Assembly: GCA_046563655.1 (NCBI GenBank)
Contig: CM102287.1
Location: forward strand, 5,332,001-5,396,000
DNA from: Yuukianura sp. NJ FZ-2021
Taxonomy: Eukaryota
Reading direction: 5' to 3'
Length of the DNA stretch: 64,000 nucleotides
Numbering within the stretch: position 1 is the stretch's first letter; the number at the start of each line of letters is the position of its first letter. Of this stretch, positions 814 through 53,394 are shown one piece after another. A program made the position numbers and the translations under genes. The notes under the pieces are model-generated. The model was given only the letters and a program-made list of their open reading frames with translations. It did no database searches and was not told the DNA's origin.

Positions 814-2116
814 CTAATTCTGGAGCTCCTTCATAAAAACGTTATGCAGAATGACTTTCTTCCTTCGTTTGCTGTAAGTGTTGTCAAATGTCACTGCGTA
901 TGTTCCCACTCTGTCGCAGACCATTGACCCCTCCTTCTGCGTCACATGAGCGTCAATTCTGTGATTGTCCACAAGAGCCTCTGACCTTGACCCAAACTCA
1001 TCTTTAAACGTCACTTGAAATCCAATGTCATAGCCCTCTGATTTGATTCTCCACATGAGCAACAATGTTGACTCTTCATCTAACTGTGATTTAGACACAG
1101 GAAATTCAAGTTCAATTTTAGATCCTGCTGGAACTTCTGTTCTCGTAAAATTTGACTCTGGAGTGTCGAAACTTCCTTTTCGACTATTGGATCTTTTGAG
1201 GTCAAGAGTTCCACTGACGTCAAAAATTGAGTTTCGACCTTGGGACATGTCGGCTTTGAAGTAGTTCTTGGGCAATGGTCCATCGTTCCAAATGCTTGCA
1301 TTTGAGCAGTACTCATCACTTCCTGGAAGAGTTCCACCGTAAAACGGTGGTAGCAGTTCAGATGGAACTTTTTCTAAAAGTGCTCTTTGCCATTTGGCTG
1401 GATTTGGACCAAAAAATTCCATTTTGCCAATCGTGCGAGGAGACAGGAAAGGACGCAGAAGTGCAAAAAATATTGGGAAAATCCTTGGCGTGTTGATGAA
1501 AAAGCAGTGTTTCAAAATTTCAGGATAATTGGCTTCAAAAATTCTGAAAAATTCTATTGCTCCTTGACACACTGTGCGACTGTTCAGTTGTCTGTAAGAA
1601 AACTGTTGACAATCAAAAATAACCAAAACTTGATTCACCGGTTTGTTCAAACGTTTTGAAGATTTTTTAATTTCATCTTCCAGCATCACGAGCAACTTAA
1701 TTGCAGCTCGAACTCCAGGAATCAAATCGCCAATTTCAATTACTTCACGCATGTCCCAAACTCCCATGGGACAAATGAATACTAAAAAACGCAACACCAA
1801 AATTTTCAAAATCATTTTAAAAAAAAAATGTTTTTCGAAGCTTACTTGGAGATCCTTCTGAATCTGATCCCAAATGAGCATATCGAAAGTAGTTGTGAAC
1901 TGGTTTCCAATCAAGCAGTGTATGCAATTCGTTTCGGATGGTCCATGCCATTGACCTGCGCAACATTAGCTCTGCTTTGTCCAAATCAAATTCCCGGGCG
2001 CGCAGCCACCGAATAAGGTAATGGTCATCTTTCAGATTCTCCGGCGGAACGACGTCTGTCACCCGTTTTCGAAATTTTTGCACAATGACGAGTTCTTTGG
2101 AATCAATTGTCGTCAT
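814..2116 (-). CDS. SEC14-like lipid-binding protein (CRAL-TRIO N, CRAL-TRIO, C-terminal GOLD domain); exons 2116-1846 and 1781-814
   Basis: Motifs DDHYLIRWLRAREFDLDKAELMLR, FEANYPEILKHCFFINTPRIF and LLPPFYGG, plus GOLD-like YDIGF...GTYAVTFDNTYS. GT-AG intron 1845-1782 restores the frame. Confidence 0.92.
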
Positions 2117-3473
2117 GTTCGTTTCAACGGTTGTGGTGGGTTTCTTGTTAGGTTAACAAGGTTAGTTAGGTTCTGGGGTAGAATTGTTAGGCTAGGTGAG
2201 TCCTGTTTACTTGTACTTTGCAAACTGACAAGCACTTTATCCAAGTGCTGGACATGACTCGTCAAGTTTTGGTTTAAAACCTGTTTTCTCCTTGGAAATT
2301 AAACAGGATAGGCAAGGTTCTACAACAAAATAACAAAAATACTTTTGTTTTTTGTGATACATTTTGGTTTAAATTGTGACGTAACAAGGGAAGTTCTTTT
2401 TTAATGAATTTATAATAGAAGGTTTCAATATTTCCAAATAATTGTGAATTCTGAATTGCGGAATCCAGTTTTTGCTACAGAGAATTTTTTCGTTCCAAAA
2501 CAAAAGAATTTTTTCCGGAGTTCGCATCGCTTTAAACTGGAGGAAATCACGCAAGGCTTTTCATTAGTAGCTTCCAGTATTCGTTAGGACAAAACTTGTT
2601 ATTATTTTTTCAATTTTGAAATTTGGGATGTTGTTTTTTTCGACGCGTGAAATCGAAACGGAATAAACAAAAATGTTCATGCGACAGCACGGGAAAGCTT
2701 TAATTATGCTGAAGCTTATGTTGAGCTTATAATTAATTAAAGTGGACTTTGTGAATTCTTGATTATATTGTGAGACTTTTCATGCAATGCAGATCGTATG
2801 ATGAGATTTTTCTCACCACAAACTGTAAAAGGAAAGCTTTCCGTGAAATTTTATTTCTATAATAAATGTCTCCTCCTGCTAGGTTAGGATTTTAAATTTA
2901 AAGAAGTTGATTAACATTCCCAAAACGTCAAAAAGTTTTAGCTTGAGAGTAATGCATTTTCCAAACTTTATTTCTTGCTTTAAAACGAGCGATGCAGCAG
3001 ATTATGTGCCCCGGAATTGAAAAAAAAATCATAATGTGAGTCACATTGTGTAAATCTGAAATCCCCTGAGATCATTTAATCAGTTTAGCAGTACGTGCAG
3101 GTTATTCTTTGTTGAAATCGTGTGTGTAAAAAATATCGAGGATCTAAAAAAAACAAAATTTTTAAAAACTGGTTTGACAGCTTTCTTCAGTTTCGAATGC
3201 TGCGTTGTGTTGTTTTTGCTTTTCTGCGTAAAAAAATTTCCTTGATGCAGTTCAAGGTTATGTTATGCGCACATGCTTCAAATGTCGTCACTCTACAGAC
3301 TAAAACAATTATCAAAGCTGACGTAAATGCTACTAGACTGGAATTTTGTTTTAATTTTGATTTCTAATAATTCCGAAATTTTGGGATTCATTTTTGAGTC
3401 AACGTTTATAGTTAACAGAACGAAAGAATTGTTAAATAGGCTACTCTTCAGAGACTTTTAACTTGATGTTGGC

Positions 3474-5569
3474 TTAGCCAAAAAAGGAGTTGAAGCGTTC
3501 CTGATACGGTTGCGTAAAAAGTCGTCGCTCAAATGGGCCAACCCCTCGTTTCAAATTTGCCACACTGTAGGTTACGTGACCAGTCTCCGGCGACAAGCGT
3601 CGCTCTCCAGCATTGTTCTGGATATCAGCAATCCCGTTCCAAACTTCCTCTGAAACAAATAAAACTATTAAGTCAACACACTTTCCCTAACAGTTAACCT
3701 AATCAGAAGCAGTAAATTATGTTAGTTTGGTAATGAATGATACAAGTAATTGTAAGTACCAGACTGCCCGGATGGAGGTCGTGACCTCATAAGAGGAATT
3801 ATGGAGTCACTTTCGAGTGCCTTGACCCTGCCCGAATATGGTCGTTTCTCTGCAGATTCAATTGATGAAAACGGATATGGATTACTTCCGTAAAGTTCAA
3901 TGACATCGCCATCCTCATCGTTGTCAACAAAGTCAGTTTCGCTTTCCCTGCCCACAACACGATCCTTCCCTGGTCCATGGAGAACGTTCTCCTTTGAGGT
4001 CAACATGGACATCAATTTCATGTAGTACTGGTCAGGCGTCAGACTCTGAGAGTTTCTACACGCATAACAAAAAAAATCAGAGAACAACTTAAAAATGAAA
4101 AACTCTTTAAACTAACACTAAAAACACGCTAAGCTCAAAAGACTTACTGAAAGTTGGTTCGACGTGGTCTACCGAAAACAGTTGCAACTGTAGCTCCGCT
4201 TCCTTCGAAAAAAAAAATCGGGTTCGTTTCTTTTAAAGAATGAAACAAACTGTATTCTGGACTAAATTCAACTTGCCAAACCTTTGTCGTTGCTGTTGCC
4301 ATGTTCTGTATTGATATTTCTGAAAATCCAGAATTAAAAATTCTTTTGAAGTGCCTCACTTTCAATACTTTCAAATTTAATTTGATTTTGAAGTGCTTTT
4401 TTTTAGACTAAATTGAAGTCAAAGTATGACTTCCAGAAGACAAATCAAATTAGCAAACTCGGAAGATGCGTCGTCACATTTGTTGATTTTGCCATTCAAA
4501 TTCTAAAACACAGAAGTTCTTCAATTCTCACTTGTAATTTAACTTTTAGAATAATAGATTTCTAGCAAGCACAGCTCGTCTTTTTAATTTCTTTGAAAGC
4601 TTTTTATTTGGATTCACAAAGTGTTTTTTGATACTATTCGACAGGCAATGTGTAGGTGTTGTGACGAAGGCATTGAATAATGTGAAGTATAGGAATTTGC
4701 TCTGTACTTTCGCCCAGTACTTTCTCCGTTGCATTCCAAAAACTAATTAATTTGTAAAAGTGCCCCAATTTCTTAAGCGAATTTACTTTGCACTCGTGTA
4801 AAACTTTCTGCCACAAGTTGTGGCAACCATACTTCAGTATGTTAGTTTTGTTTTAAAAGTTCGGAGGAAATGAAATTATGTAATGTATTACTTTTTCTTA
4901 ACAATTTTTTGCAAATTTGCAGGATTTTTTTATCGATTCTTTTTTGCACAATTGCACCAATTTTTGCCAACGGCTTCGGTGGACTTCGAGCAGTTTAGCA
5001 GCCGTATTATTAGAAAGAGCTTGTTTAAGAAAGTGTTCTGTTTGAAAACGAGACTTACCGGTTAAGCTGTTGGTGATTTGGAATTGAAGAGTCCTTCTTG
5101 GCGACCTGTTTCATTACTTCTGAACACAAATAAAACAATTAAAACTTGGAAATTTCCCATTACAAACAGAATTACAGTTACACCGGAAATACTAAAATGC
5201 TTTCCAAGTACCCAATGCAGTACATCAAACTAACAATTCACAGGTTTAATTGTGTTAGATCAACTTAGAAATTGACTATGGCCTTCAAAATACAAAACAA
5301 AGTTTTCAACCCTTTTTTTTAATTATATTTAACTTAATTCGTTTCTTGTTCCGCAGAAAATAATTATTGATGCCATTGTTCGTGACAATAAAGTGAACAT
5401 TTATAGTTGTTCAGTATGTATTTATATTTTATGTCTAATCCTAATCTAAATACATAGTATTGTAATATATCCTACCTGTTGTAGTAGTCCATCGGTACCC
5501 TTGAGTTTTCGGAACTGCACCCACCGATACCAAAACGACAAAACTTATCACGCGCATCCCTCGTAGCAT
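3474..5569 (-). CDS. Putative secreted neuropeptide/prohormone precursor, 6 exons (5569-5476, 5119-5059, 4319-4282, 4202-4148, 4055-3760, 3649-3474)
   Basis: All five GT-AG introns are phase-compatible and give one ORF. It has a signal-like N-terminus MLRGMRVISFVVLVSVGAVPKTQG, several KK/KR/RR sites and the C-terminus KR-GVGPFE-RR-LFTQPYQERFNSFFG-stop. Confidence 0.7.
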
Positions 5570-5725
5570 AATTTTTAGAATTTCAGCAAGTTTAGAGGGT
5601 AGGTGCTTTTCCAAATTAGGTTTGAAATCTGCAAAGTATTTGGTAAACTAAACATAAACTGTTAAACGTAAAACCAAATTCCAAACTTTTTGAATTGCAA
5701 AAATTACAATTTGAAAATTGGGAGT

Positions 5726-5788
5726 TCGGTATGACTAAATTTGAATGCGGTATGACTAAATTGGAATTCGGTATGACTAAATTTGAAA
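5726..5788. repeat. Three tandem 21-bp repeats (ttcggtatgactaaatttgaa)
   Basis: Directly visible, with 1-2 mismatches per unit. Confidence 0.8.
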
Positions 5789-6787
5789 CTGGGAGTGCAG
5801 TTTAACTGGTTTTCAACAAATGGGTAAAACTCGAAACACTACACCACTTACACCATATTCAGGGTTACTCAACAGCATAATAGCAAATTTCTGAAAATAA
5901 AAAGCGTTAGACATTTTTTAAACACACTTCTTACCGTATTTTGTTCAAGAAGCAACAAATTAGCGAATCAGAGTTAGAAGAAAGTCAATGCAATCATGGA
6001 CAATTAGATCGACTGCCGAGTTGAAGTTTGATTTGTAGCAGAAAGGTGTGCATTTGTTTTTCTAAATCCTGTCTAATTACCAACTTTGTGTTTAGAAATT
6101 TGAAAATTTGAAATGAATAATGTTTACTTGTAAGTGGAATGATCCTGATTAACGACGCTTTCCTTATCTCTCGCAGTAGACAAAGTTTATATACGCGTAG
6201 GAATCCTTGTCGAAGTTGCGTGGGATGGAGCTGGCAGGGGCAACGCAGATGAAGTCAAAATGAGTTCACAGGGAAACTTTTCTCTGGAAAAATTGAGAGT
6301 GAAAGTTACTAAAGTAGGCTTCAATTTCAAAAAAATGCTAACCAGTTTTTGATGAAAAGCAGAAAAAGCTTCACAAAAAGTTTTGCCAAGAGAAATTCAA
6401 AACGCCAACTTTCATTTCATTAGTTTTCATTCAAATTGAAGGAGTTTCATTTTCCTAGTGAAAATTAAAGCTGTTGTTTATGTCAATTAGGAATTCAAGT
6501 AATAATCCGAAAATTATAATAATAAAAAATTTTGTTTTACTAATTAATTAGCTTAGTTCCACGAAAATTTTTAGCATTATTCACGTAAACAAAACTGTGC
6601 TGTTCCTTTTTAATGAAGACGGTTTTCGTATCACTTTTTGCTTCGCTTGAATCAGAAAGAACTTGTGCTAATTAATAACACTGAAATTGTCTCTCAAACA
6701 TTTCAACTAAAAATAGTTCATTTAGATGGTAATAAAAGCATTTAAAATCAACAAAAAATGCTTAATGCCTAACAAAAGCTTGTACGG

Positions 6788-8092
6788 TTAACGAAAAGTA
6801 AGTAGTAGGTCCACTGTGGTTTTGAGCACAACATTGACATAGGTTTGGAGACAGAAATTTCTACTGGACACAGTAAATATTCCACCTACATTCATTGTGA
6901 TTGGGCGACACGACATTCGGAAAGCATGGTCAAATTTTGTGAGAGGCAAATTTTTAGAATTCTGAAACGAAATAAAACGTTTTGAGTGAATACTGATGTT
7001 TACACTAATTTGACATAGGACAAGACCCATGGCCAGTACTGCAATGTCGAGAGTTGTAATCAGGAACAGTATGAGGGGATCTCTGGTCCAACTTGCCTTC
7101 ATCAGCATGAATGTAAATCCAATGACGAAGAATATGTCCCCGTAGTACGCAATTTGAAACCAATGTCTAAAGTGGTCGTTCATCCTGATTCCATATACTT
7201 GGAGCGTTCTGTAAAGGGTGTAGCGTTTTAGCCGGTCAGATTCTCCTCTTCTATCAAAAGATGTAGGTTGAGCCAAGAGTTTGAGCCATTGCATAAGTGA
7301 AACCTCCATTAAAAGTGCAGTGAGCAAGCTGAAGCAGGCCCAAAACGCAAAAACGTTTCCCCCCAAACCAGTGATGATACCCGCTAGAATAGCTCCGACA
7401 GTATCGTTTTGGACTAAAAGTGAGTAGAAGCGGACCAATAGCCTCATAAAGAAAAAATTTGTGATTGCCGCCAGAACAATTACAACAGGCAGTTCGACTA
7501 ACACCATAAATCCCAGCAGCCTGAACGGTTTAAAGCACAGATACAGCAGTTTGTCACTTTCAGCCCATTTGACCATGTCGCGAATTGTTTTACCTAAAAA
7601 GCAAAAATAAAAATGCTTCATTGTTAGTTTAGATTCAGGCAAATTAAAAATGTTAATTCTCAAATTCAACGTGATTCAAATTCTAGCGTGGAAAAAGAAA
7701 AGAATTTATTTATTTCGTGTAATTTAGGAAATTGAATTTTTACGTGCGGTTCGATCAGTACTGAACAACTGATTCAGAAATTGCATAGATTTGTCTGTAT
7801 TCGTGTTCCATAATAGCTCTGCGTAGAGAAAATACCAAACTATGATGTTGACAGAAATGCTGCCCGCGAATTCAAGGTCAGTTTTACTGTTTACAAGCGT
7901 TCCGAGTGTTAATATACCCGTTAAAACACCAAGAATGCGCCCAAATATATAAATATTAGCCACGATTTTCCTTTGCTTATGTATTGCAGGTAAAATTTGC
8001 CATTGAGAATTTACGCAGCCCAACTTGAATGGACAAATTTTAAAATATGCTCCAATGTCTAGGTATCGGCGGTACTCAGAGTAGGCTGACAT
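6788..8092 (-). CDS. Divergent multi-TM chemoreceptor-like (gustatory receptor superfamily) protein, copy A; exons 8092-7744 and 7593-6788
   Basis: Several hydrophobic helices, a YRTLQ motif and a C-terminal VLKTTVDLLLTFR helix. The phase-1 intron is shared with the paralog at 51918-53394. Family assignment is by topology only. Confidence 0.6.
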
Positions 8093-9270
8093 TTTAGAAT
8101 AGTTGTGTAAGCGCCTATGGTGTTGACATAATAGTAACAGCAGAAAAGAAATCTGTTCAACCGAAAAAGAAGTAAATTTTCTGAAAAGTTGTTTGAAAAT
8201 TGAACCTTCAATTGAAAAAACGAGACCTTCTAATGCCCACCCGCCCGCGACCTCGATATTTTGTCCACCCGCCCAGTACCAACAGGGTATCGGGCGGGTA
8301 TAGGGTTACCCTACTGAGTAGGGCTCGCTGCGCTGCAAATTGCAGTCTGCAATACCCTACGGCCGACTCCCCTGGTCCAGACTTGCAGAAATAAGAATTC
8401 CTGCACGTCTTTATAAACACTAAAAGTAACCACAATTTTCTCCGGAATGTCATAAACAAGTCCAGAATGCTAAAACTAAAAAGCTAAGAGATGTTTATTC
8501 TTGCAAAAACACAAAATGCATTGGACAAACGTTTTTGATGATGATGTAGAAGTTTTTAACTGTAACCTTGCTTCTCAAACCAAAACATATTTCAGTGAAA
8601 GTGGAAGCATTATGGAGGAAATACTGGAAATTCTCATAAAAAATAAATAAAAGGGAAAGTACTTTTCAAGTAATAGACCTCGATGTAATGTGAAAATTGT
8701 ATGTAATTTAGTTAGCTTAGCATTATACTAAACGTATATTCAATATAATTCTTAGGTCGGAACTACTTAGAAATTGCATTCATGAACCCTGCGTGATTTG
8801 GTCAAAAGTGAAATGATCAGAAAGTGAAAAGGTCAGAAAGTGAAAAGCTCAAAAACGAAATGAACTATACGGCTATGTATGTTTTAGAAATATAAAAACT
8901 ATTATAGCCTTCCACTGCCGTATTTTTTATTTTACTATATTTATGCTCAACGGATTATATTTATTTATTTAGTTAATCATTAATTAAATAATGTTCCCAT
9001 TTGTAATAAAATTACGCTGATAACCAAAAATTTCTGAAATTCGGGCACCACTTACCACATTTAGTACAGCGAAATTCAGAGGTGAAAGTTCCATAGTTGG
9101 GTTGCCATAAGCATACATTTCAACAAGTAACACAGATAATAAATCATCTCGTTGCGTTGCCTCATTCGTTTCTAATTTGGAAAGTTTTTTTTTATGTTTT
9201 TATGCGTGTTTGGCTCAAAATTTTTGTTTTTGTTTTTTGGTACAAAGCAGTGTAGTGCTCAAACTGAAAA

Positions 9271-26263: not shown

Positions 26264-28026
26264 AGCTGGAACACTCCTTTCAACGTAAATTTTTTCCACA
26301 AGCTGTCTACTTTAATAAATACAACAAAAAGGAACATCGAAATTCAATTTCATTTTTATAAAGTTATGAATATTTTCTTTGCCAAAAATCGATACACGCC
26401 CTTTCACTTTTCTTCTGTTTTTTTCTTTTGCTTAGAATTTCTGATTGTGTAAAAAATTTTCCCCTATGCTTTGACCTATTTTAAATTGAAATTGTACAAG
26501 TAGAAGGTTTTCGCTTAAATAAAAAATTAAAATGTGCTTGTCATAAAATGGCCGTCCAACTTCCGTTGGTTTAATTCCGGTTTTGACAAAATAGTTTTCA
26601 TTCTGAATGAAGATCCGTTTGGTAGTGGCTGGAACTCAGAAGTCACGTAACATCACTTCCTCGTCACGACATGGGTCATCCAATTGTTCTCGACTGCCTT
26701 CCATTGTTAGTCTTTCAGAGCAGGAAAGGAAAATGGGAGTCGAAATTGTGACATGTCCTTGTACGTACTACAGTAAATGCGAATGTACAGATGAATGGCT
26801 CTACTAACCGAAAAGATCTAATTCTATTAATAGCCATTTTTTGCAGTGAAGTTGCTGAAATAGCTAACTACATGCTTAGGTCAGCTATTTACTTCTAGTC
26901 GGTGACACTTGGAATACAAATAAATCTTGGAGTCTCCTATCTTAGTTTTGATTTGATTCTTCTGTCAATTTTAAGTGTCTAATCTCAAATTTCAAAGAAT
27001 TAGTCATCACCTAACTCCGCTTGGACGAAGGACTTAAGACCATAAGGTAAACGGAGAAATTGGCATTTGAAGTTTAGATGAAAAGTTTAGCATTAGCCAG
27101 CGTTAGAAGACAACTTAAATATTAAGTGTTTTGCTAAATTATGTTTTAGTAGAAATTGAAGGTAAAGTGATGCGTTTCGATTAACCTCTTGAACCCTGAG
27201 TTATTTTCGTGGTGTTTGGTTTTCGGCCCTCTTTTAATTTCCATTGGTTACCACGGCTGACTAAATTGAAATATTGTTACGATTCGAGGGCGACGCCATT
27301 TTTTTTGTGGGGTGGCACAAGTGGCCGGATTTATGCCTCCATATTTTCTCACATATTTGACCCAAAATTAAATACACAATCCAACATAATGTTGGTGCCG
27401 GGTTAGTTTGACACAAATTCCGATTTTTTTTTGGAATAATATGATACAAAAATTCTGGAGTTTCTTGTCAATTGCCTTACTACATGTACATACACCGCGA
27501 TTTTTTTTAAAAAAAAAATCAAGAATTTAAAAAAAAAACCAAAAAAGAGTTTTTCGAAAAAGTGTTTGCTTAAAAAGGACGGAGTATCGTCCTTTTTAAG
27601 CAAAATTCAAATTACTGTTACAAAATGCATTTCTGAGAACATATTTTACATTTTTTTGACAACCAAAAACCATTTTCTCAACTTTTCATGACGAGTGCAA
27701 CATTTTTGATTGTAATAATATTATAATAATACTAACAATTGGCATAAATATTGAATATGCCGAGGCTGCTCCGCGTGCTTACTGGGGCTTCGCCGCAAAG
27801 AGTGATTTACGTCATGGGTGGGATTGTGACCCACACTCTTGCCGTACTGCAACATAATTTCTAATAACTTGCTAATAACTGTACTTACCATATATTACAA
27901 CAAGGTAATATATGATGATAATAATAAGAATAACATATTATTATTATTTATATTATGTGGATAATATAACATATACACATATTATATGCCGTAAACAATA
28001 CATTACCTCTTTAATGTATTTTGTAT

Positions 28027-29473
28027 ATCCAGAAAAGTTTGACCCATAAAAGTCTTATCTTGAAAAGCCTGATCAAGAAAAGTCAGATCCAGAAAAGTCT
28101 GATCCAGAAAAGTTTGATCCATAAAAGTCTTATTTAGAAAAATCTGATCCGGAAAAGTCTTATTTAGAAAATTCTGATCCGGAAAAGTCTGATCCATAAA
28201 AGTCTGATCCAGAAAAGTTTGATCCATAAAAGTCTTATTTAGAAAAATCTGATCCAGAAAAGTCTGATCCAGACGAGTTTGATCCATAAAAGTCTTATTC
28301 AGAAAAATCTGATCCGGAAAAGTCTGATCCAGAAAAGTCTGAGCCAGAAAAGTCTGATCCAGAAAAGTTTGATCCATAAAACTCTTATTTAGAAAAGTCT
28401 GATCCAGAAAAATCTGATCCAGAAAAGTCTGATCCAGAAAAGTCTGAGCCAGAAAAGTCTGATCCAGAAAAGTTTGATCCATAAAAGTCTTATTTAGAAA
28501 AATCTGATCCGGAAAAGTCTGATCCAGAAAAGTCTGAGCCAGAAAAGTCTGATCCAGAAAAGTTTGATCCATAAAAGTCTTATTTAGAAAAATCTGATCC
28601 GGAAAAGTCTGATCCAGACGAGTTTGATCCATAAAAGTCTTATTCAGAAAAATCTGATCCGGAAAAGTCTGATCCAGAAAAGTCTGAGCCAGAAAAGTCT
28701 GACCCAGAAAAGTTTGATCCATAAAACTCTTATTTAGAAAAGTCTGATCCAGAAAAGTTTGATCCATAAAAGTCTTATGTAGAAAAATCTGATCCGGAAA
28801 AGTCTGATCCAGAAAAGTCTGAGCCAGAAAAGTCTGAGCCAGAAAAGTCTGACCCAGAAAAGTTTGATCCATAAAACTCTTATTTAGAAAAGTCTGATCC
28901 AGAAAAGTTTGATCCATAAAAGTCTTATTTAGAAAAATCTGATCCGGAAAAGTCTGATACAGAAAAGTCTGAGCCAGAAAAGTCTGATCCAGAAAAGTTT
29001 GATCCATAAAAGTCTTATTTAGAAAAATCTGATCCGGAAAAGTCTGATCCAGAAAAGTCTGATCCAGAAAAGTCTGATCCAGAAAAGTTTGATCCATAAA
29101 AGTCTTATTAGAAAAATCTGATCCGGAAAAGTCTGATCCAGAAAAATCTGATCCGGAAAAGTCTGATCCAGAAAAGTCTGAGCCAGAAAAGTCTGATCCA
29201 GAAAAGTTTGATCCATAAAAGTCTTATTTAGAAAAATCTGATCCGGAAAAGTCTGATCCAGAAAAGTCTGAGCCAGAAAAGTCTGATCCAGAAAAGTTTG
29301 ATCCATAAAAGTCTTATTTAGAAAAATCTGATCCGGAAAAGTCTGATCCAGAAAAGTCTGAGCCAGAAAAGTTTGATCCATAAAAGTCTTATTAGAAAAA
29401 TCTGATCCGGAAAAGTCTGATCCAGAAAAGTCTGAGCCAGAAAAGTCTGATCAAGAATAGTCTAATCCAGAAA
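28027..29473. repeat. 15-bp tandem array (atccagaaaagtctg and variants), ~95 units with ~90-bp higher-order modules
   Basis: Directly visible. The minus strand reads as DQTFL/DQTFP/DQIFL/NKTFM/AQTFL pentapeptides. Confidence 0.95.
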
Positions 29474-48518: not shown

Positions 48519-49391
48519 TCTATTTCAAATAAATTATATTTTCTGGAATTTTTTGTTTTATTTCTGAACCTTAATTTAAAAACACTTGGATGAAAATATT
48601 TTCTGGAATTGTACTGGAATTAGTAAATCCTATTAGAGGAATGAAATTCGGCTCTTCAGAAAATCGCTTAAGGCTTATAACTATGAAAAAAATTTAAAGG
48701 GCTATAAGAAACTTTATAACAATGTACCAAAAGCTCTAACAATAAAATCATATTAATAAAAAAGGAAGTGTCTACTAAAATTTGTCTACTAAAGTGTCTA
48801 TTTTATAATTCATTTGTGTTCAAAAATATTTACAGCATTAAAAACCGGTCGTAAACCATAGTGTACAAAAGTAGCGAAAGATATGACGCTATATTCGTGA
48901 ACGGCTGCTCACACCGGCACACAATGAAAGTCATGGACTATAGTTATGAACGCTAAGATCAAAAAAGATTACCTTAGCTGTAATTGCCGTCGACGGACGG
49001 TCGGGCGGCCTTACAGACAGACAAGGTCGAAGCATCAAGTAGCTTTCGCTACTTAAGCCGTTTGTAAATCGAACATAAAACGACAATATTGAGACAATGT
49101 CTTGCAGAGTATTAATTAGATGATAATGTGCCAAATCCATCTGCTTTTTCGGCAAAGCCTTTCAAAGTATTTAATTAGATGGTAAAGGGCCAAATGTATC
49201 TGCTTTCGCTGAAATTTCCTAATAAACTACTAATTTATGGCATTAGTAATTCACTTAGCACTTTGTATCGACATTCTAGCAGAATCTGCATTTAGTTATG
49301 ATACTAAAACCATCTAATAAAATTGGTGATTTTCTGTACAAGCATTTAGAGAGTCTGAGAGTCACGGAACGAGAATTTCATTGCTACAAAC

Positions 49392-50135
49392 ATGCTCAAA
49401 TTTCTTGCGTCAAAATACTTGTTAACGTTAGTTTTAGTTACGGTAATATTCTTTGTATCTAATGTAACCGGAAGATCTTGGGATTTCGAGGACATTCTTG
49501 AGCCTCAATGTGACGACTGTCGCTGCCTAGGCCAAAGTTTACCCTACAACGACACTGGACTGCAGAAGGTCCTTGGGAAAGCAAAATTCCATATGATGAG
49601 TAGCCAATTGGGAGCAGTCATTGACAGTTTGTTCATGCGAGGAGTCCCAATTACGAGCGACGCTGAATTAAAGTCCATTTGCTACCGTAAGAGACACGAC
49701 TTTGGAAAAGCGGGAAGGTTGATGGTAATATGGGAATTGAACAATAACATTGTCGGATTTAATTGGAAAATGGAAAATGAAAATGAACATATTCGTTGTG
49801 GTGAAGCAGTTTATTTTAGAGACAATAAACCGACCCGATACAAAGATTGTGCGCATCGTCACGTCTATTTTCCAAAAATGAACAAGAAGAATACTGAACT
49901 TTACTACAACGCTTTTGGTAATGGAGATCCTACGCGTCACATTGTGTGGACTGACGGAACAGTTTCAATCAGTACGACATGCCACGGAGGGAGGTCTTGC
50001 TATGTAGTTGATTCACCAAAGAAACGCCTCAAGAAAAAAACAAAGACGGCGGTATTTTTGGCCTTGAAGAAATTGGGATTCGACACCACCAAAACAGCCA
50101 TCTACTCTCCTCGGAAGGCTTGCAAAAACGTTTAA
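49392..50135 (+). CDS. Intronless secreted protein, divergent lipocalin-like, copy 1
   Basis: Signal peptide and conserved Cys. The C-terminal HIVWTDG..STTC...YVVDS.KK.L...ALKKLGFD resembles lipocalin SCR2/SCR3 plus the helix (inference). Confidence 0.6.
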   Translation: MLKFLASKYLLTLVLVTVIFFVSNVTGRSWDFEDILEPQCDDCRCLGQSLPYNDTGLQKVLGKAKFHMMSSQLGAVIDSLFMRGVPITSDAELKSICYRKRHDFGKAGRLMVIWELNNNIVGFNWKMENENEHIRCGEAVYFRDNKPTRYKDCAHRHVYFPKMNKKNTELYYNAFGNGDPTRHIVWTDGTVSISTTCHGGRSCYVVDSPKKRLKKKTKTAVFLALKKLGFDTTKTAIYSPRKACKNV

Positions 50136-50502: not shown

Positions 50503-51050
50503 TTTCATGTTACCTAGAATGGAACCGGCTGACCTTGGAGCCAGAAGGAGTCAGCGAACAGTCAACACCTCCTGCACTCCCGCTGTTCAATAGTGAAAAT
50601 TGATCCCGAAAATGTTAGCGGTTTACGAGATAATTACTTTGCCGTCAAAAAGCGTACGGCTATACAGACAGACAATGCCGATGCATAAAGTATTCTTTGC
50701 TACTTAATAATCCGTTCGTAAATTGAACATAAAATGACAAAAGCAAAGCCTTTCAAAGTATCAAGTAGATAATTATAGCTTTATTCTTTAAAAAGTTTTT
50801 TTTTCACAAACTTACATCTGCCAATGGTATGTTTAGGTATTTACAGAGTAAAGTTAAGTTAATTATACATTAATTAGATGGTAATATGCCAAGTGTATCT
50901 GCTTTCGCTGAAGTTTTCTACTACACTTTACTAATTTATTACATTAGTAATTCACGCAGAATCGGCATTTAGTTATCATACATATCATAATAAAACTGGT
51001 GATTTTTTCCATTTAGAGAAACAGCGAACAAGTTTTGCATTGCTCCAAAA

Positions 51051-51791
51051 ATGCTCAAATTACTTGGGTCAAAATACCTGCTAACTTTAGTTACGATAAT
51101 ATTATTGTTTGTATCTAAAGTAAACGGAAGATCTTGGGATATCGAGGATATTCTTGAGCCTCAATGTGACGACTGTCGCTGCCTAGGTCAAAGTTTACCG
51201 TACAACGACACTGGGCTGCAGAAGCTCCTTGGGAAAGCAAAATTTCATATGATGAGTAGCCAATTGGGAGCAGTCATTGACAGTTTGTACATGCGCGGAG
51301 TACCAGTTACGAGCGATGCTGAATTGAGCTCCATTTGTTACCATAAGAAACACGATTTTGGAAAAGCTGGAAGGTTGATGATAACATGGGCATCGGATAA
51401 TAACATTGTTGGATGGAATTGGAAAATGGAAAATGAATTTCAAAATATTCGTTGTGGTGAAGCAGTTTATTTTGGAAACAATAAATCCGCCCGATACAGA
51501 AACTGTGCACATCGTCACGTTTATTTTCCAAAAATGAACAAGAAACATAGTGAACTTTACTACAAACTTTTTGGAAATGGCAATCCTACGCGTCATATAG
51601 TGTGGACTGACGGAACAGTTTCAATCAGTACGACATGCTACGAAGGGAGGTCTTGCTATGTCGTTGATTCACGAAAGAAACGACTCAGAAGAAAAACAAA
51701 GATGGCGGTACTTTTGGTTTTGAAGAATTTGGGATTCGACACCACCAAAACAGCCATCTACTCTCCCTGGAAAGCTTGCAACAACGTTTAA
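51051..51791 (+). CDS. Intronless secreted protein, divergent lipocalin-like, copy 2
   Basis: Closely similar to 49392-50135, including upstream sequence. Confidence 0.6.
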   Translation: MLKLLGSKYLLTLVTIILLFVSKVNGRSWDIEDILEPQCDDCRCLGQSLPYNDTGLQKLLGKAKFHMMSSQLGAVIDSLYMRGVPVTSDAELSSICYHKKHDFGKAGRLMITWASDNNIVGWNWKMENEFQNIRCGEAVYFGNNKSARYRNCAHRHVYFPKMNKKHSELYYKLFGNGNPTRHIVWTDGTVSISTTCYEGRSCYVVDSRKKRLRRKTKMAVLLVLKNLGFDTTKTAIYSPWKACNNV

Positions 51792-51917: not shown

Positions 51918-53394
51918 TTAACGAAAAGTGAGTAGAAGGTCAACTGTGCTTTTGAGGATAACATTAACATAGGTTTGGAGACAGAAATTTCTACTGGACA
52001 AAGTAAACATTCCACCCACATTCACTGTAATTGGGCGACAAGATTTTCTAATAGCATGGTCAAATTTTGTGAGAGGCAAATTTTTAGAATATTGGAACGA
52101 AATAAAACGTTTTGAGTGAATACTAATATTCACACCAACCTGGCATATAACAAGACCCATGACCAGTATTGTAATGTCGAGAGTTGTAAACATGAACAGT
52201 AAGAGGGGATCTTTGGTCCAACTTGCTTTCATCAGCATAAATGTAAACCCAATGACGAAAAATATGTTCCCGTAGTACGCAACTTGAAGCCATTGTCGGA
52301 GGTGGTCGTTGATCCTGATTCCATATACTTGGAGTGTCCTGTAAAGGGCGTGGCATTTCAGCCGGTCACGCTCTCCTCTTCTATCCAAAGGTGTATGTTG
52401 AGCCAAGAGTTTGAGCCATTGCATAAGTGAAGCCGAAATTAAAAGTGCAGTGAGCAAACTGAACCAACCCCAAAACACAAATGCGTTTCCTGCCAGACCA
52501 GTGACGAAACCCGCTAGAATAGCTCCGACAGTAGCGTTTTGGACTAGAATTGAGTAGTAGCGGACCATAAGCCTCATAAAGAAAAAGTTTGTGATTGCCG
52601 CCAACACAGTTATAACAGGCATTTCGACTAACACCATAAATCCCAGCAGCTTGAACGGTTTAAAGCACAGATACAGAAGTTTGTCACTTTCAGCCCACTT
52701 GAGCAAGCCGCGAATAGTTTCACCTAAAAAGTAAAAAAAAAATTCAAAGTTATAGTTTGCCTCTTTTCAGAAGGCACTTTTCTTTAGTGTTTTTTTTTCT
52801 TCGATTTCGACGCTCATGGAAAAACTTAGTTTTTGAGAAACGCTCTCCTCATTAGCGTTGAAATTTCAAAAAACTGGTAATTTCTAATGTTAAGCATCCG
52901 TCAAGCCAAGCCACTGGAATTTTTTCAAATTTGAAAAGTGCCTTCTAAAAAGAGACAAACTATAGTTTAGCTTTAAGGAAATTAAAAATTTAAATTTTCG
53001 AAATCAGTATTTTTTTTAGAGAAATATAAGAAATTGAATTTTTACGTGCTGTACGATCAGTACTGAACAACTGATTCAGAAATTGCACAGATTTGTCTAT
53101 GTTCGTGTTCCATAGTTGGTCTGCATATAGACAATATAATACTACAATGTTGATAGAAATGCTTCCCGCAAATTCAAGGTCAGTTTTGCTGTCTGCAAGA
53201 GTGTGGAATATCATTACAACCGATAAAATACTAAGAATACGCCCAAATTTAAAAATATTTGCCACGATTTTCCTTTGCTTGTGTGTTAGAGGTATAATTT
53301 GCCATTGAGAGTTTACGCAATCCAACTTGAACGGGCAAATTTTAAAATATGCTCCAATGTGTAGGTATTGGTGGTACTCAGAGTAGGCAGACAT
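51918..53394 (-). CDS. Chemoreceptor-like protein, copy B of 6788-8092; exons 53394-53046 and 52723-51918
   Basis: Colinear and closely similar to copy A, with the same phase-1 intron. Confidence 0.6.
52753..52962. mobile_element. TA-target (Tc1/mariner-type) MITE in the intron of receptor copy B
   Basis: ~30-bp TIRs tagtttgcctcttttcagaaggcacttttc / gaaaagtgccttctaaaaagagacaaacta, flanked by TA. The empty site gttagtttag is in the copy A intron (~7623). Confidence 0.85.

What the first reader, a model, noticed from the sequence alone, without database searches (positions are those of the whole stretch)
3474..5569. Candidate undescribed neuropeptide precursor yielding LFTQPYQERFNSFF-amide
Seen: six small exons, mostly missed by the ORF track, splice in phase into a ~240-aa protein. 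It has a signal-like N-terminus, acidic spacers and dibasic sites (KK, RPRR, KR, RR, KR, RR), and ends RR-LFTQPYQERFNSFF-G-stop. Known: a terminal Gly after a dibasic-cleaved peptide is the substrate for PHM/PAL amidation. Other predicted products include LSPETGHVTYSVANL and GVGPFE. Inference: a prohormone. The -NSFFamide end matches no arthropod family I recognise (not RFamide, RYamide, RFLamide, EFLamide or SIFamide).
Basis: partly seen in the sequence, partly recalled or inferred. Interest (0 to 1): 0.78.

Follow-up and report, generated by a model that had tools for sequence, protein, structure and literature searches.

The report
Orphan arthropod FNSFF-amide neuropeptide precursor candidate
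Six short coding stretches in this arthropod genome join in frame into a predicted 239-residue, likely secreted protein whose tail would be cut into three small peptides, the last likely amidated (ending FNSFF-amide); no relative was found, so it is likely an undescribed signalling-peptide precursor.

Summary
Observation confirmed. Six minus-strand exons with GT-AG introns splice in frame into 239 aa. Codon usage favours that frame by about 95 bits over the next sense frame. The protein has a signal-like start, no Cys, six dibasic sites, and ends RR-14mer-Gly-stop. Terminal Gly plus three KR/RR sites in the last 45 aa occurs in 0.09% of shuffles (post hoc).

It is not this genome's SIFamide, kinin or EFLamide gene; each lies elsewhere. 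No homologue turned up in any search, but only single exons could be queried. No RNA holder was listed. Conservation, expression and processing are all untested.

Best reading (0.6): an undescribed prohormone whose amidated C-terminal peptide acts on a class A GPCR. New lead: the tail resembles SIFamide and molluscan FFamide, and the genome has three SIFamide-receptor-like genes but one SIFamide gene found; one lies 77 kb away. Extra receptors do not need a second ligand.

The scan's index showed no look-alike on other DNA. Interest 0.42.

The parts
5476..5569 (-). Coding exon 1, with start codon and predicted signal peptide
   Evidence: ATG at 5569 with A at -3; first ATG after an in-frame stop near 5650 in the genomic frame; donor GTAGGA
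5498..5569 (-). Predicted signal peptide, residues 1-24 (cleavage site inferred by the -3/-1 rule; after residue 18 is an alternative)
   Evidence: Basic start, hydrophobic core with Kyte-Doolittle peak 2.74 at residues 7-17; coordinates; no SignalP run
5059..5119 (-). Coding exon 2, holds the KK site (aa 39-40)
   Evidence: TTCAG acceptor, GTAAGT donor; codon score +4.6 in frame, best of six frames
4282..4319 (-). Coding exon 3 (38 nt, weakest exon)
   Evidence: TTTCAG acceptor, weak GTTTGG donor; codon score not discriminating; can be skipped in frame together with exon 2 or exon 4
4148..4202 (-). Coding exon 4, holds the RPRR site (RR at aa 78-79)
   Evidence: Poly-T tract with AAG acceptor, GTAAGT donor; GC 0.49
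3760..4055 (-). Coding exon 5, acidic spacer and a KR site (aa 153-154)
   Evidence: Codon score +21.6 in frame versus -24.1 and -44.8; the fragment between the RR and KR sites has net charge -9
3474..3649 (-). Coding exon 6: three KR/RR sites, three predicted peptides, Gly, stop
   Evidence: TTTCAG acceptor; codon score +8.1 in frame; single match in the genome
3552..3596 (-). Predicted peptide LSPETGHVTYSVANL (free acid, [M+H]+ 1587.80), between RR and KR
3528..3545 (-). Predicted peptide GVGPFE (free acid, [M+H]+ 605.29), between KR and RR
3480..3521 (-). Predicted amidated 14-mer LFTQPYQERFNSFF-NH2 ([M+H]+ 1822.89)
   Evidence: After RR, before Gly-stop
3474..3479 (-). Terminal Gly codon (predicted amide donor) and TAA stop
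   Evidence: Read directly
5852..5890 (-). Possible upstream 5' exon with an ATG at 5878; gives a 26-codon upstream ORF with the consensus donor, or a 28-residue N-terminal extension with a weaker donor 2 nt away
   Evidence: Inferred from splice motifs only
6186..6193 (-). TATA-like box, possible promoter
   Evidence: Motif only
2850..2972 (-). Two AATAAA candidate polyadenylation signals (first bases 2972 and 2855)
   Evidence: Motif only

Best explanation
The locus is a single-copy, predicted six-exon gene for a likely secreted prohormone that convertases would cut at its KR/RR sites to release three short C-terminal peptides, the last of which would be amidated at its terminal Gly to give LFTQPYQERFNSFF-NH2, likely the active signal acting on a class A GPCR. 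Shown: the open spliced frame, coding bias, hydrophobic N-terminus, dibasic sites, Gly-stop ending, and no second copy found. From established pathway knowledge (recalled): signal peptide, PC1/3-PC2 cleavage, carboxypeptidase trimming, PHM/PAL amidation. Inferred: neuronal or endocrine expression, which fragment is active, and the receptor. My first candidate receptors are the three SIFamide-receptor-like GPCRs of this genome (about 0.2 given the prohormone reading), because the tail F-N-S-F-F-amide differs from the tail of this genome's SIFamide (F-N-G-S-I-F-amide) by one gap and one I/F exchange.
For: In-frame splice with 5 of 5 GT-AG introns. Codon score +44 versus -51/-58 bits. In 200,000 shuffles of the mature part: P(5 or more KR/RR)=0.038, P(3 or more in the last 45 aa)=0.011, P(that and terminal Gly)=0.0009. 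Empirical control: 4 of 2818 other stop-ended open stretches of 57 aa or more in 606 kb of this genome's DNA meet the same rule, and by eye 2 of the 4 are basic runs. No Cys, no Pfam domain in exon 5 or 6, acidic spacer. Gly-stop endings after a basic site occur in Tenebrio HanSolin and RFLamide precursors (PMC9552230 supplement part 3). Aromatic amidated tails of similar form: oyster FFamide/SIF-like peptide ends N-S-L-F-F-amide (PMC4200219 passage). Three SIFamide-receptor-like genes versus one SIFamide gene among 13 pattern hits examined.
Against: No homologue was found, although earlier notes in this scan cite Folsomia and Orchesella records as relatives of other genes of this genome (unchecked). 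Most true neuropeptides have a conserved active core, so this argues for fast evolution or narrow distribution. The chance test was chosen after seeing the sequence; at 4 in 2818, scaled by my arithmetic, several hundred stretches genome-wide would pass the tail rule alone. The three exon-6 peptides are not paracopies of each other. An alternative upstream donor would put 28 residues before the signal-like stretch. Two SIFamide receptors occur with a single ligand in Nilaparvata, and both receptor branches hold a receptor shown to respond to SIFamide (bioRxiv 2020.09.17.302331), so spare receptors do not need a second ligand.
Confidence: 0.6

Rival explanations
1. A real processed precursor, but of non-neural effector peptides (gland, gut, reproductive or immune secretion) that do not act through a neuropeptide GPCR.
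For: No homologue found, as is typical of fast-evolving secreted effectors (the generalisation is recalled). Gly-stop amidation is also used by such peptides (recalled). The window holds other lineage-specific-looking secreted ORFs.
Against: The amidated 14-mer has net charge 0 before amidation and no Cys, unlike typical cationic antimicrobial peptides (recalled). The aromatic amidated tail looks like GPCR ligands.
Confidence: 0.15
2. An ordinary secreted, disordered protein that is not cut; the dibasic sites and terminal Gly are chance.
For: Arg is common (19 of 239 residues); 5 or more KR/RR sites arise in 3.8% of shuffles and a terminal Gly in 7.9%. The scan has flagged other orphan prohormone-like genes in this genome that follow-ups could not support (notes 1 and 4, unchecked).
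Against: Joint probability 0.0009 in shuffles; three evenly spaced sites in the last exon delimit clean, non-basic peptides.
Confidence: 0.14
3. A strongly diverged member of an already named family, most plausibly RFLamide or the cockroach FERLQ-like precursor.
For: RFLamide is a single C-terminal peptide after a basic site, with Gly-stop in Tenebrio, and shares F-T and R-F with this peptide. No RFLamide gene was established elsewhere in the genome. The name FERLQ recalls F-E-R-R-L in exon 6; its sequence could not be read.
Against: RFLamide is described as well conserved (overall divergence 0.14) with precursors of 122-211 aa; aligning it needs a 4-residue insertion and a new tail. The Tenebrio RFLamide precursor has two Cys; this protein has none.
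Confidence: 0.08
4. Not an expressed gene: a chance chain of exon-like pieces or a decayed gene.
Against: Codon score +44 bits in frame, introns strongly negative except the 79-nt intron 3, exon/intron GC contrast; no stop or frameshift in 239 codons; TATA-like box and polyadenylation-like signals in the expected order.
Confidence: 0.03

Closest known systems
Arthropod SIFamide and its paralogues SMYamide and IMFamide (bioRxiv 2020.09.17.302331, parts 1-3 of 4 read; PMC4062910, passages)
   Same: Amidated Phe end; F-N...S-x-F tail (this genome's SIFamide ends F-N-G-S-I-F).
   Different: In this genome's SIFamide gene the peptide follows the signal peptide directly, is followed by G-K-R, and a downstream frame carries two Cys. 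Here the peptide is at the very end, after about 200 residues, with no Cys and without the K-P-P-F-N-G core.
Molluscan FFamide / SIF-like peptide (oyster GMNPNMNSLFFamide; PMC4200219, passage)
   Same: Ends in FF-amide with N-S just upstream.
   Different: Leu between S and FF; different phylum; precursor layout not compared.
Insect RFLamide and HanSolin precursors (PMC7179676 passages; PMC9552230 supplement part 3)
   Same: Signal peptide, long spacer, one amidated peptide at the C-terminus; Gly-stop ending in Tenebrio. This is the closest match in layout.
   Different: Tails are I-R-F-L-amide and G-Q-P-L-R-W-amide; precursors are shorter (122-211 and 88-139 aa); no two extra dibasic-flanked peptides before the last one.
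Leucokinins (PMC7913504, passages)
   Same: F-N-S at the same distance from the amide as in this genome's kinin (T-G-F-N-S-W-G-amide).
   Different: Lacks the W at position 4 of the core, reported as crucial for activity, and the final G; the genome has its own kinin gene.

Membership tests
Amidated neuropeptide precursor (general class) | N-terminal signal peptide | tested here: inconclusive
   Hydrophobic core at residues 7-17, peak 2.74; no SignalP; an alternative 5' splice could add 28 residues
Amidated neuropeptide precursor (general class) | Short peptides flanked by KR/RR sites | tested here: met
   5 KR/RR and 1 KK; 3 in the last 45 aa, P=0.011 by shuffling
Amidated neuropeptide precursor (general class) | Gly amide donor at the end of the peptide | tested here: met
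   Gly then TAA at 3479-3474
Amidated neuropeptide precursor (general class) | Selective conservation of the peptide in relatives | tested here: inconclusive
   No relative found
Amidated neuropeptide precursor (general class) | Neural or endocrine expression, mature peptide detected, receptor activated | not testable with these tools
   Needs RNA-seq, peptidomics and a receptor assay
SIFamide / SMYamide / IMFamide | K-P-P-F-N-G-S-x-(F/Y)-amide core | tested here: not met
   Tail is E-R-F-N-S-F-F; the canonical gene is on contig C4
SIFamide / SMYamide / IMFamide | Peptide directly after the signal peptide, Cys pair in the following propeptide | tested here: not met
   Peptide is C-terminal and the protein has 0 Cys; layout of the canonical gene; that this layout defines the family is recalled
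SIFamide / SMYamide / IMFamide | Activates a SIFamide-type receptor | not testable with these tools
   Three candidate receptors located; no assay
Leucokinin | F-X-(S/P)-W-G-amide | tested here: not met
   F-N-S-F-F; motif; own kinin gene on C8
EFLamide / TRH-type | E-F-L-G motif, many copies in wingless hexapods | tested here: not met
   No such motif; separate array with 17 EFLG on C8; family description
RFLamide | C-terminal I-R-F-L-amide 12-mer after RKR/RRR | tested here: not met
   Consensus; R-F is followed here by N-S-F-F
RFLamide | A separate orthologue exists in this genome | tested here: inconclusive
   18 hits versus 11 control (contexts not read), 4 hits versus 1 control; the best hit sits among repeated mini exons and is not established
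HanSolin | G-Q-P-L-R-W-amide | tested here: not met
   Motif; absent from the protein
NVP-like, NPLP1, Pea-NPLP/fliktin, iPTH | Likeness to the printed Tenebrio precursors | tested here: not met
   Compared by eye only; no shared peptide motif seen
Pea FERLQ-like precursor | Sequence likeness | not tested
   Sequence not readable: supplement too large, table not held, no other relevant paper among 6 listed

The most novel reading that the evidence does not exclude
An undescribed neuropeptide family, unrelated in precursor layout to SIFamide, whose FNSFF-amide peptide is a second ligand for one of the three SIFamide-receptor-like GPCRs of this genome, perhaps the one 77 kb away. It would be the unknown ligand that Veenstra listed as one explanation for extra SIFamide receptors.
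Probability: 0.12. Interest if true: 0.78.

Novelty: new member of a known kind. Interest (0 to 1): 0.42.

Why it matters
Neuropeptide lists for wingless hexapods were built by similarity to known families (PMC4770511, passages), so lineage-specific signals are missed. This gene gives exact masses and a synthetic 14-mer to test. If it activates one of the three SIFamide-receptor-like GPCRs, it would answer why some arthropods keep several such receptors, and show either convergence on a receptor clade or a rearranged precursor. If it is only a species-restricted secreted protein, it matters little.

Tried and rejected
Expression: no RNA holder listed; this is no evidence either way, and no reads could be laid.

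Homologue searches, single exons only. Exon 6: 5 candidates of 101-2000 aa, none at E<=1, candidates not shown; no candidate of 31-100 aa; 0 hits at E<=0.001 among 1.84 billion representatives; no usable Atlas hit; 0 Pfam families; PDB best E 0.68, bile salt hydrolase, chance. Exon 5: 70 candidates, none at E<=10; no Atlas hit; 0 Pfam families; one own-genome hit at E 4.2, not pursued beyond reading its frames. Metagenomes: 2 of 540 candidate stretches passed; both are GC-rich (0.60, 0.53) with stop-rich flanking frames, and I reject them as chance. A short conserved peptide alone could fall below all these thresholds.

Scan index: no look-alike by sequence or place, no finding with the word FFamide or SIFamide.

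Literature: searches. (five motif strings) matched 335 papers; 30 were listed, none with the string RFNSFF and none a neuropeptide paper by title; 305 were not seen. PMC13760995 main text has 0 occurrences of 'ffamide' or 'sff'. The one supplement held for PMC4770511 (8,023 characters) had no hit and is probably not the sequence file. Supplements of PMC12604039 and PMC13302288 could not be read; they bear on the FERLQ and CNP1 comparisons.

I first took locus L021 for RFLamide and withdrew that. A receptor motif pattern found nothing; in two of the three receptors the reading frame breaks at that motif. An SMYamide-like hit (L141) has no signal peptide or basic flanks and sits among 13 hits versus 18 control; not accepted. 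Structure and complex prediction were not run: the protein looks unstructured and the peptide is below the size the tools score.

Full report
Observation. The locus lies on the minus strand of a 98.7-Mb animal genome. Six exons (5569-5476, 5119-5059, 4319-4282, 4202-4148, 4055-3760, 3649-3474) join through five GT-AG introns into 720 nt, or 239 residues and a stop. My first attempt had two boundaries off by one base; one search corrects them. Exons are richer in GC than introns (0.37-0.49 versus 0.28-0.33). A codon model trained on 10 long ORFs of the window gives +44.3 bits for the proposed frame against -50.7 and -57.9 for the other sense frames. The signal is strong in exons 5 and 6 and not discriminating in exons 1, 3 and 4. 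Six of 16 exon-skipping combinations reach the same C-terminus in frame, so the peptide does not hinge on the small exons. A TATA-like box (6193-6186) and two AATAAA words flank the gene in the expected order. A possible upstream exon would give a 26-codon upstream ORF or, with a weaker donor, a 28-residue extension; this is unresolved.

Anatomy. Residues 7-17 are hydrophobic (peak 2.74), after a basic start; I infer cleavage after residue 24. There is no Cys. Dibasic sites lie at aa 39, 78, 153, 198, 215 and 223. The last three delimit a 15-mer, a 6-mer and a 14-mer followed by Gly and the stop. In 200,000 shuffles of the mature part, a terminal Gly together with three KR/RR sites in the last 45 residues arose with frequency 0.0009; the rule was chosen after seeing the sequence. 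In real DNA of this genome, 5 of 2819 stop-ended stretches met the rule, one being this gene. The tail pattern alone is therefore not rare genome-wide. It carries weight because it sits at the end of an independently supported gene with a signal-like start.

Organism. The genome has a SIFamide gene, a kinin gene and a 17-copy EFLamide array. Multi-copy EFLamide precursors occur in chelicerates, crustaceans and wingless hexapods (PMC7294237, passage), so it is an arthropod. The label 'springtail' comes from earlier notes of the scan and I did not test it.

Relatives. None was found. Only single exons could be used as queries. Exon 6 gave nothing; exon 5 nothing. Two metagenome hits are chance. 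The genome has one match for exon 6. These blanks do not exclude an orthologue that keeps only a short peptide: five candidates shared words with exon 6 but scored above E 1 and were not shown. They do argue against strong conservation of the whole last exon in annotated proteomes. No RNA holder was listed, which says nothing about expression.

Mechanism. The most likely course is entry to the secretory pathway, convertase cleavage at KR/RR, trimming, and amidation at the terminal Gly (pathway recalled). Gly-stop endings are documented for Tenebrio HanSolin and RFLamide precursors (PMC9552230, supplement part 3 of 5). The amidated 14-mer is the likely ligand. Its tail resembles three known tails: SIFamide of this genome (F-N-G-S-I-F), oyster FFamide/SIF-like peptide (N-S-L-F-F; PMC4200219, passage) and kinin of this genome (F-N-S-W-G). 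The kinin W is reported as crucial (PMC7913504, passage), which counts against a kinin receptor.

Receptor lead. I searched the genome for class A GPCRs (157 matches, 150 listed) and read the TM3 region of the 30 loci returned plus 60 further stretches; the rest were not read. One looked SIFamide-receptor-like. Searching with it and with a second one gave three related genes: C5, C8 (49% identical to C5, 194 bits) and C6 (45%, 123 bits); the next hit scored 47 bits. Their nearest solved relatives are orexin, NPY, tachykinin, CCK and NPFF receptors, which does not by itself name the clade. They match, by eye, at 3-5 of 6 residues the motifs encoded by Periplaneta SIFamide-receptor primers. The name 'SIFamide-receptor-like' rests on that and on recall; no tree was built. 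A relaxed pattern found one canonical SIFamide gene among 13 hits. The C5 receptor ends about 77 kb from this gene's stop; by my arithmetic the chance for any of three genes is about 0.5%, but I noticed it after the fact and roughly 15-20 unrelated genes lie between (counted by eye). Veenstra (bioRxiv 2020.09.17.302331, parts 1-3 of 4 read) names an unknown ligand as one of three explanations for a second receptor, but favours shared activation, since Nilaparvata has two receptors and no SMYamide and each branch holds a deorphanised receptor. The lead is testable but weak.

Comparison with known families. It works like a single-copy C-terminal amidated-peptide precursor of the HanSolin/RFLamide layout. 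It fails the defining motifs of SIFamide, kinin, EFLamide, RFLamide and HanSolin (see membership tests). By eye it shares no motif with the Tenebrio precursors printed. SIFamides share little beyond the final Phe-amide with their vertebrate counterparts (PMC4062910, passages), so tail likeness can neither prove nor exclude a shared receptor clade. Two gaps remain. No RFLamide gene was established elsewhere in the genome. The cockroach FERLQ-like sequence could not be read (PMC12604039: passages and section 24 part 1 seen; supplement closed). PMC13302288 (passages and section 13), PMC7179676 (passages), PMC13760995 (passages) and PMC4770511 (passages; one short supplement) showed nothing matching in what I saw. 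Nine literature searches found no description of this peptide, within the limits given under Tried and rejected.

Verdict. A real-looking gene with a clean prohormone layout and no known family. My odds: neuropeptide-type prohormone 0.6, non-neural processed peptides 0.15, uncut secreted protein 0.14, diverged known family 0.08, not a gene 0.03. It is a new candidate of a familiar kind.

Noticed in passing
G000 C5:5248558-5258856 (L144, L128), C8:11323785-about 11333800 (L123, L153), C6:221782-232617 (L129, L130): Three SIFamide-receptor-like GPCR genes against one SIFamide gene found; the C5 copy is about 77 kb from the candidate gene.
   Followed up: partly
   Followed up: no
L154 (G000 C8:1403584-1404041): EFLamide precursor with 17 EFLG motifs in one open frame. 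PMC4770511 says springtails have the lowest paracopy numbers of EFLamide among wingless hexapods, so this count is unexpected if the genome is a springtail's.
   Followed up: partly
L141:1490-1530 (G000 C5:8990466): An acceptor-like site is followed by a short frame ending F-N-G-S-M-Y-G-A-stop, SMYamide-like in letters but without basic flanks; may be chance.
   Followed up: no
L021:1489-1523 (G000 C5:3820007): A 35-nt mini exon that can read F-T-S-I-R-F-L, RFLamide-like, but followed by similar repeated mini exons; identity unresolved.
   Followed up: partly
window 814-1965 (-): CRAL-TRIO plus GOLD domain gene (SEC14-like) directly downstream of the candidate.
   Followed up: no
window 6788-8305 (-) and 51918-52766 (-): Two near-duplicate membrane-protein genes without a Pfam hit; they look like gustatory-type chemoreceptors (recalled resemblance).
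   Followed up: no
window 49359-50135 and 51003-51791 (+): Tandem pair of single-exon secreted proteins with Cys residues and a basic tail, no Pfam hit.
   Followed up: no
window 28003-29223 (-): 406-codon open frame of five-residue repeats (Pfam pentapeptide hits); probably a 15-nt tandem repeat rather than a gene.
   Followed up: no
window 5715-5790: Three copies of a roughly 15-nt word in the presumed 5' intron of the candidate gene.
   Followed up: no
L146-L147 (G000 C5:5277-5289 kb): Tandem cluster of about seven glycosyltransferase-like exons (family name recalled) between the C5 receptor and the candidate gene.
   Followed up: no
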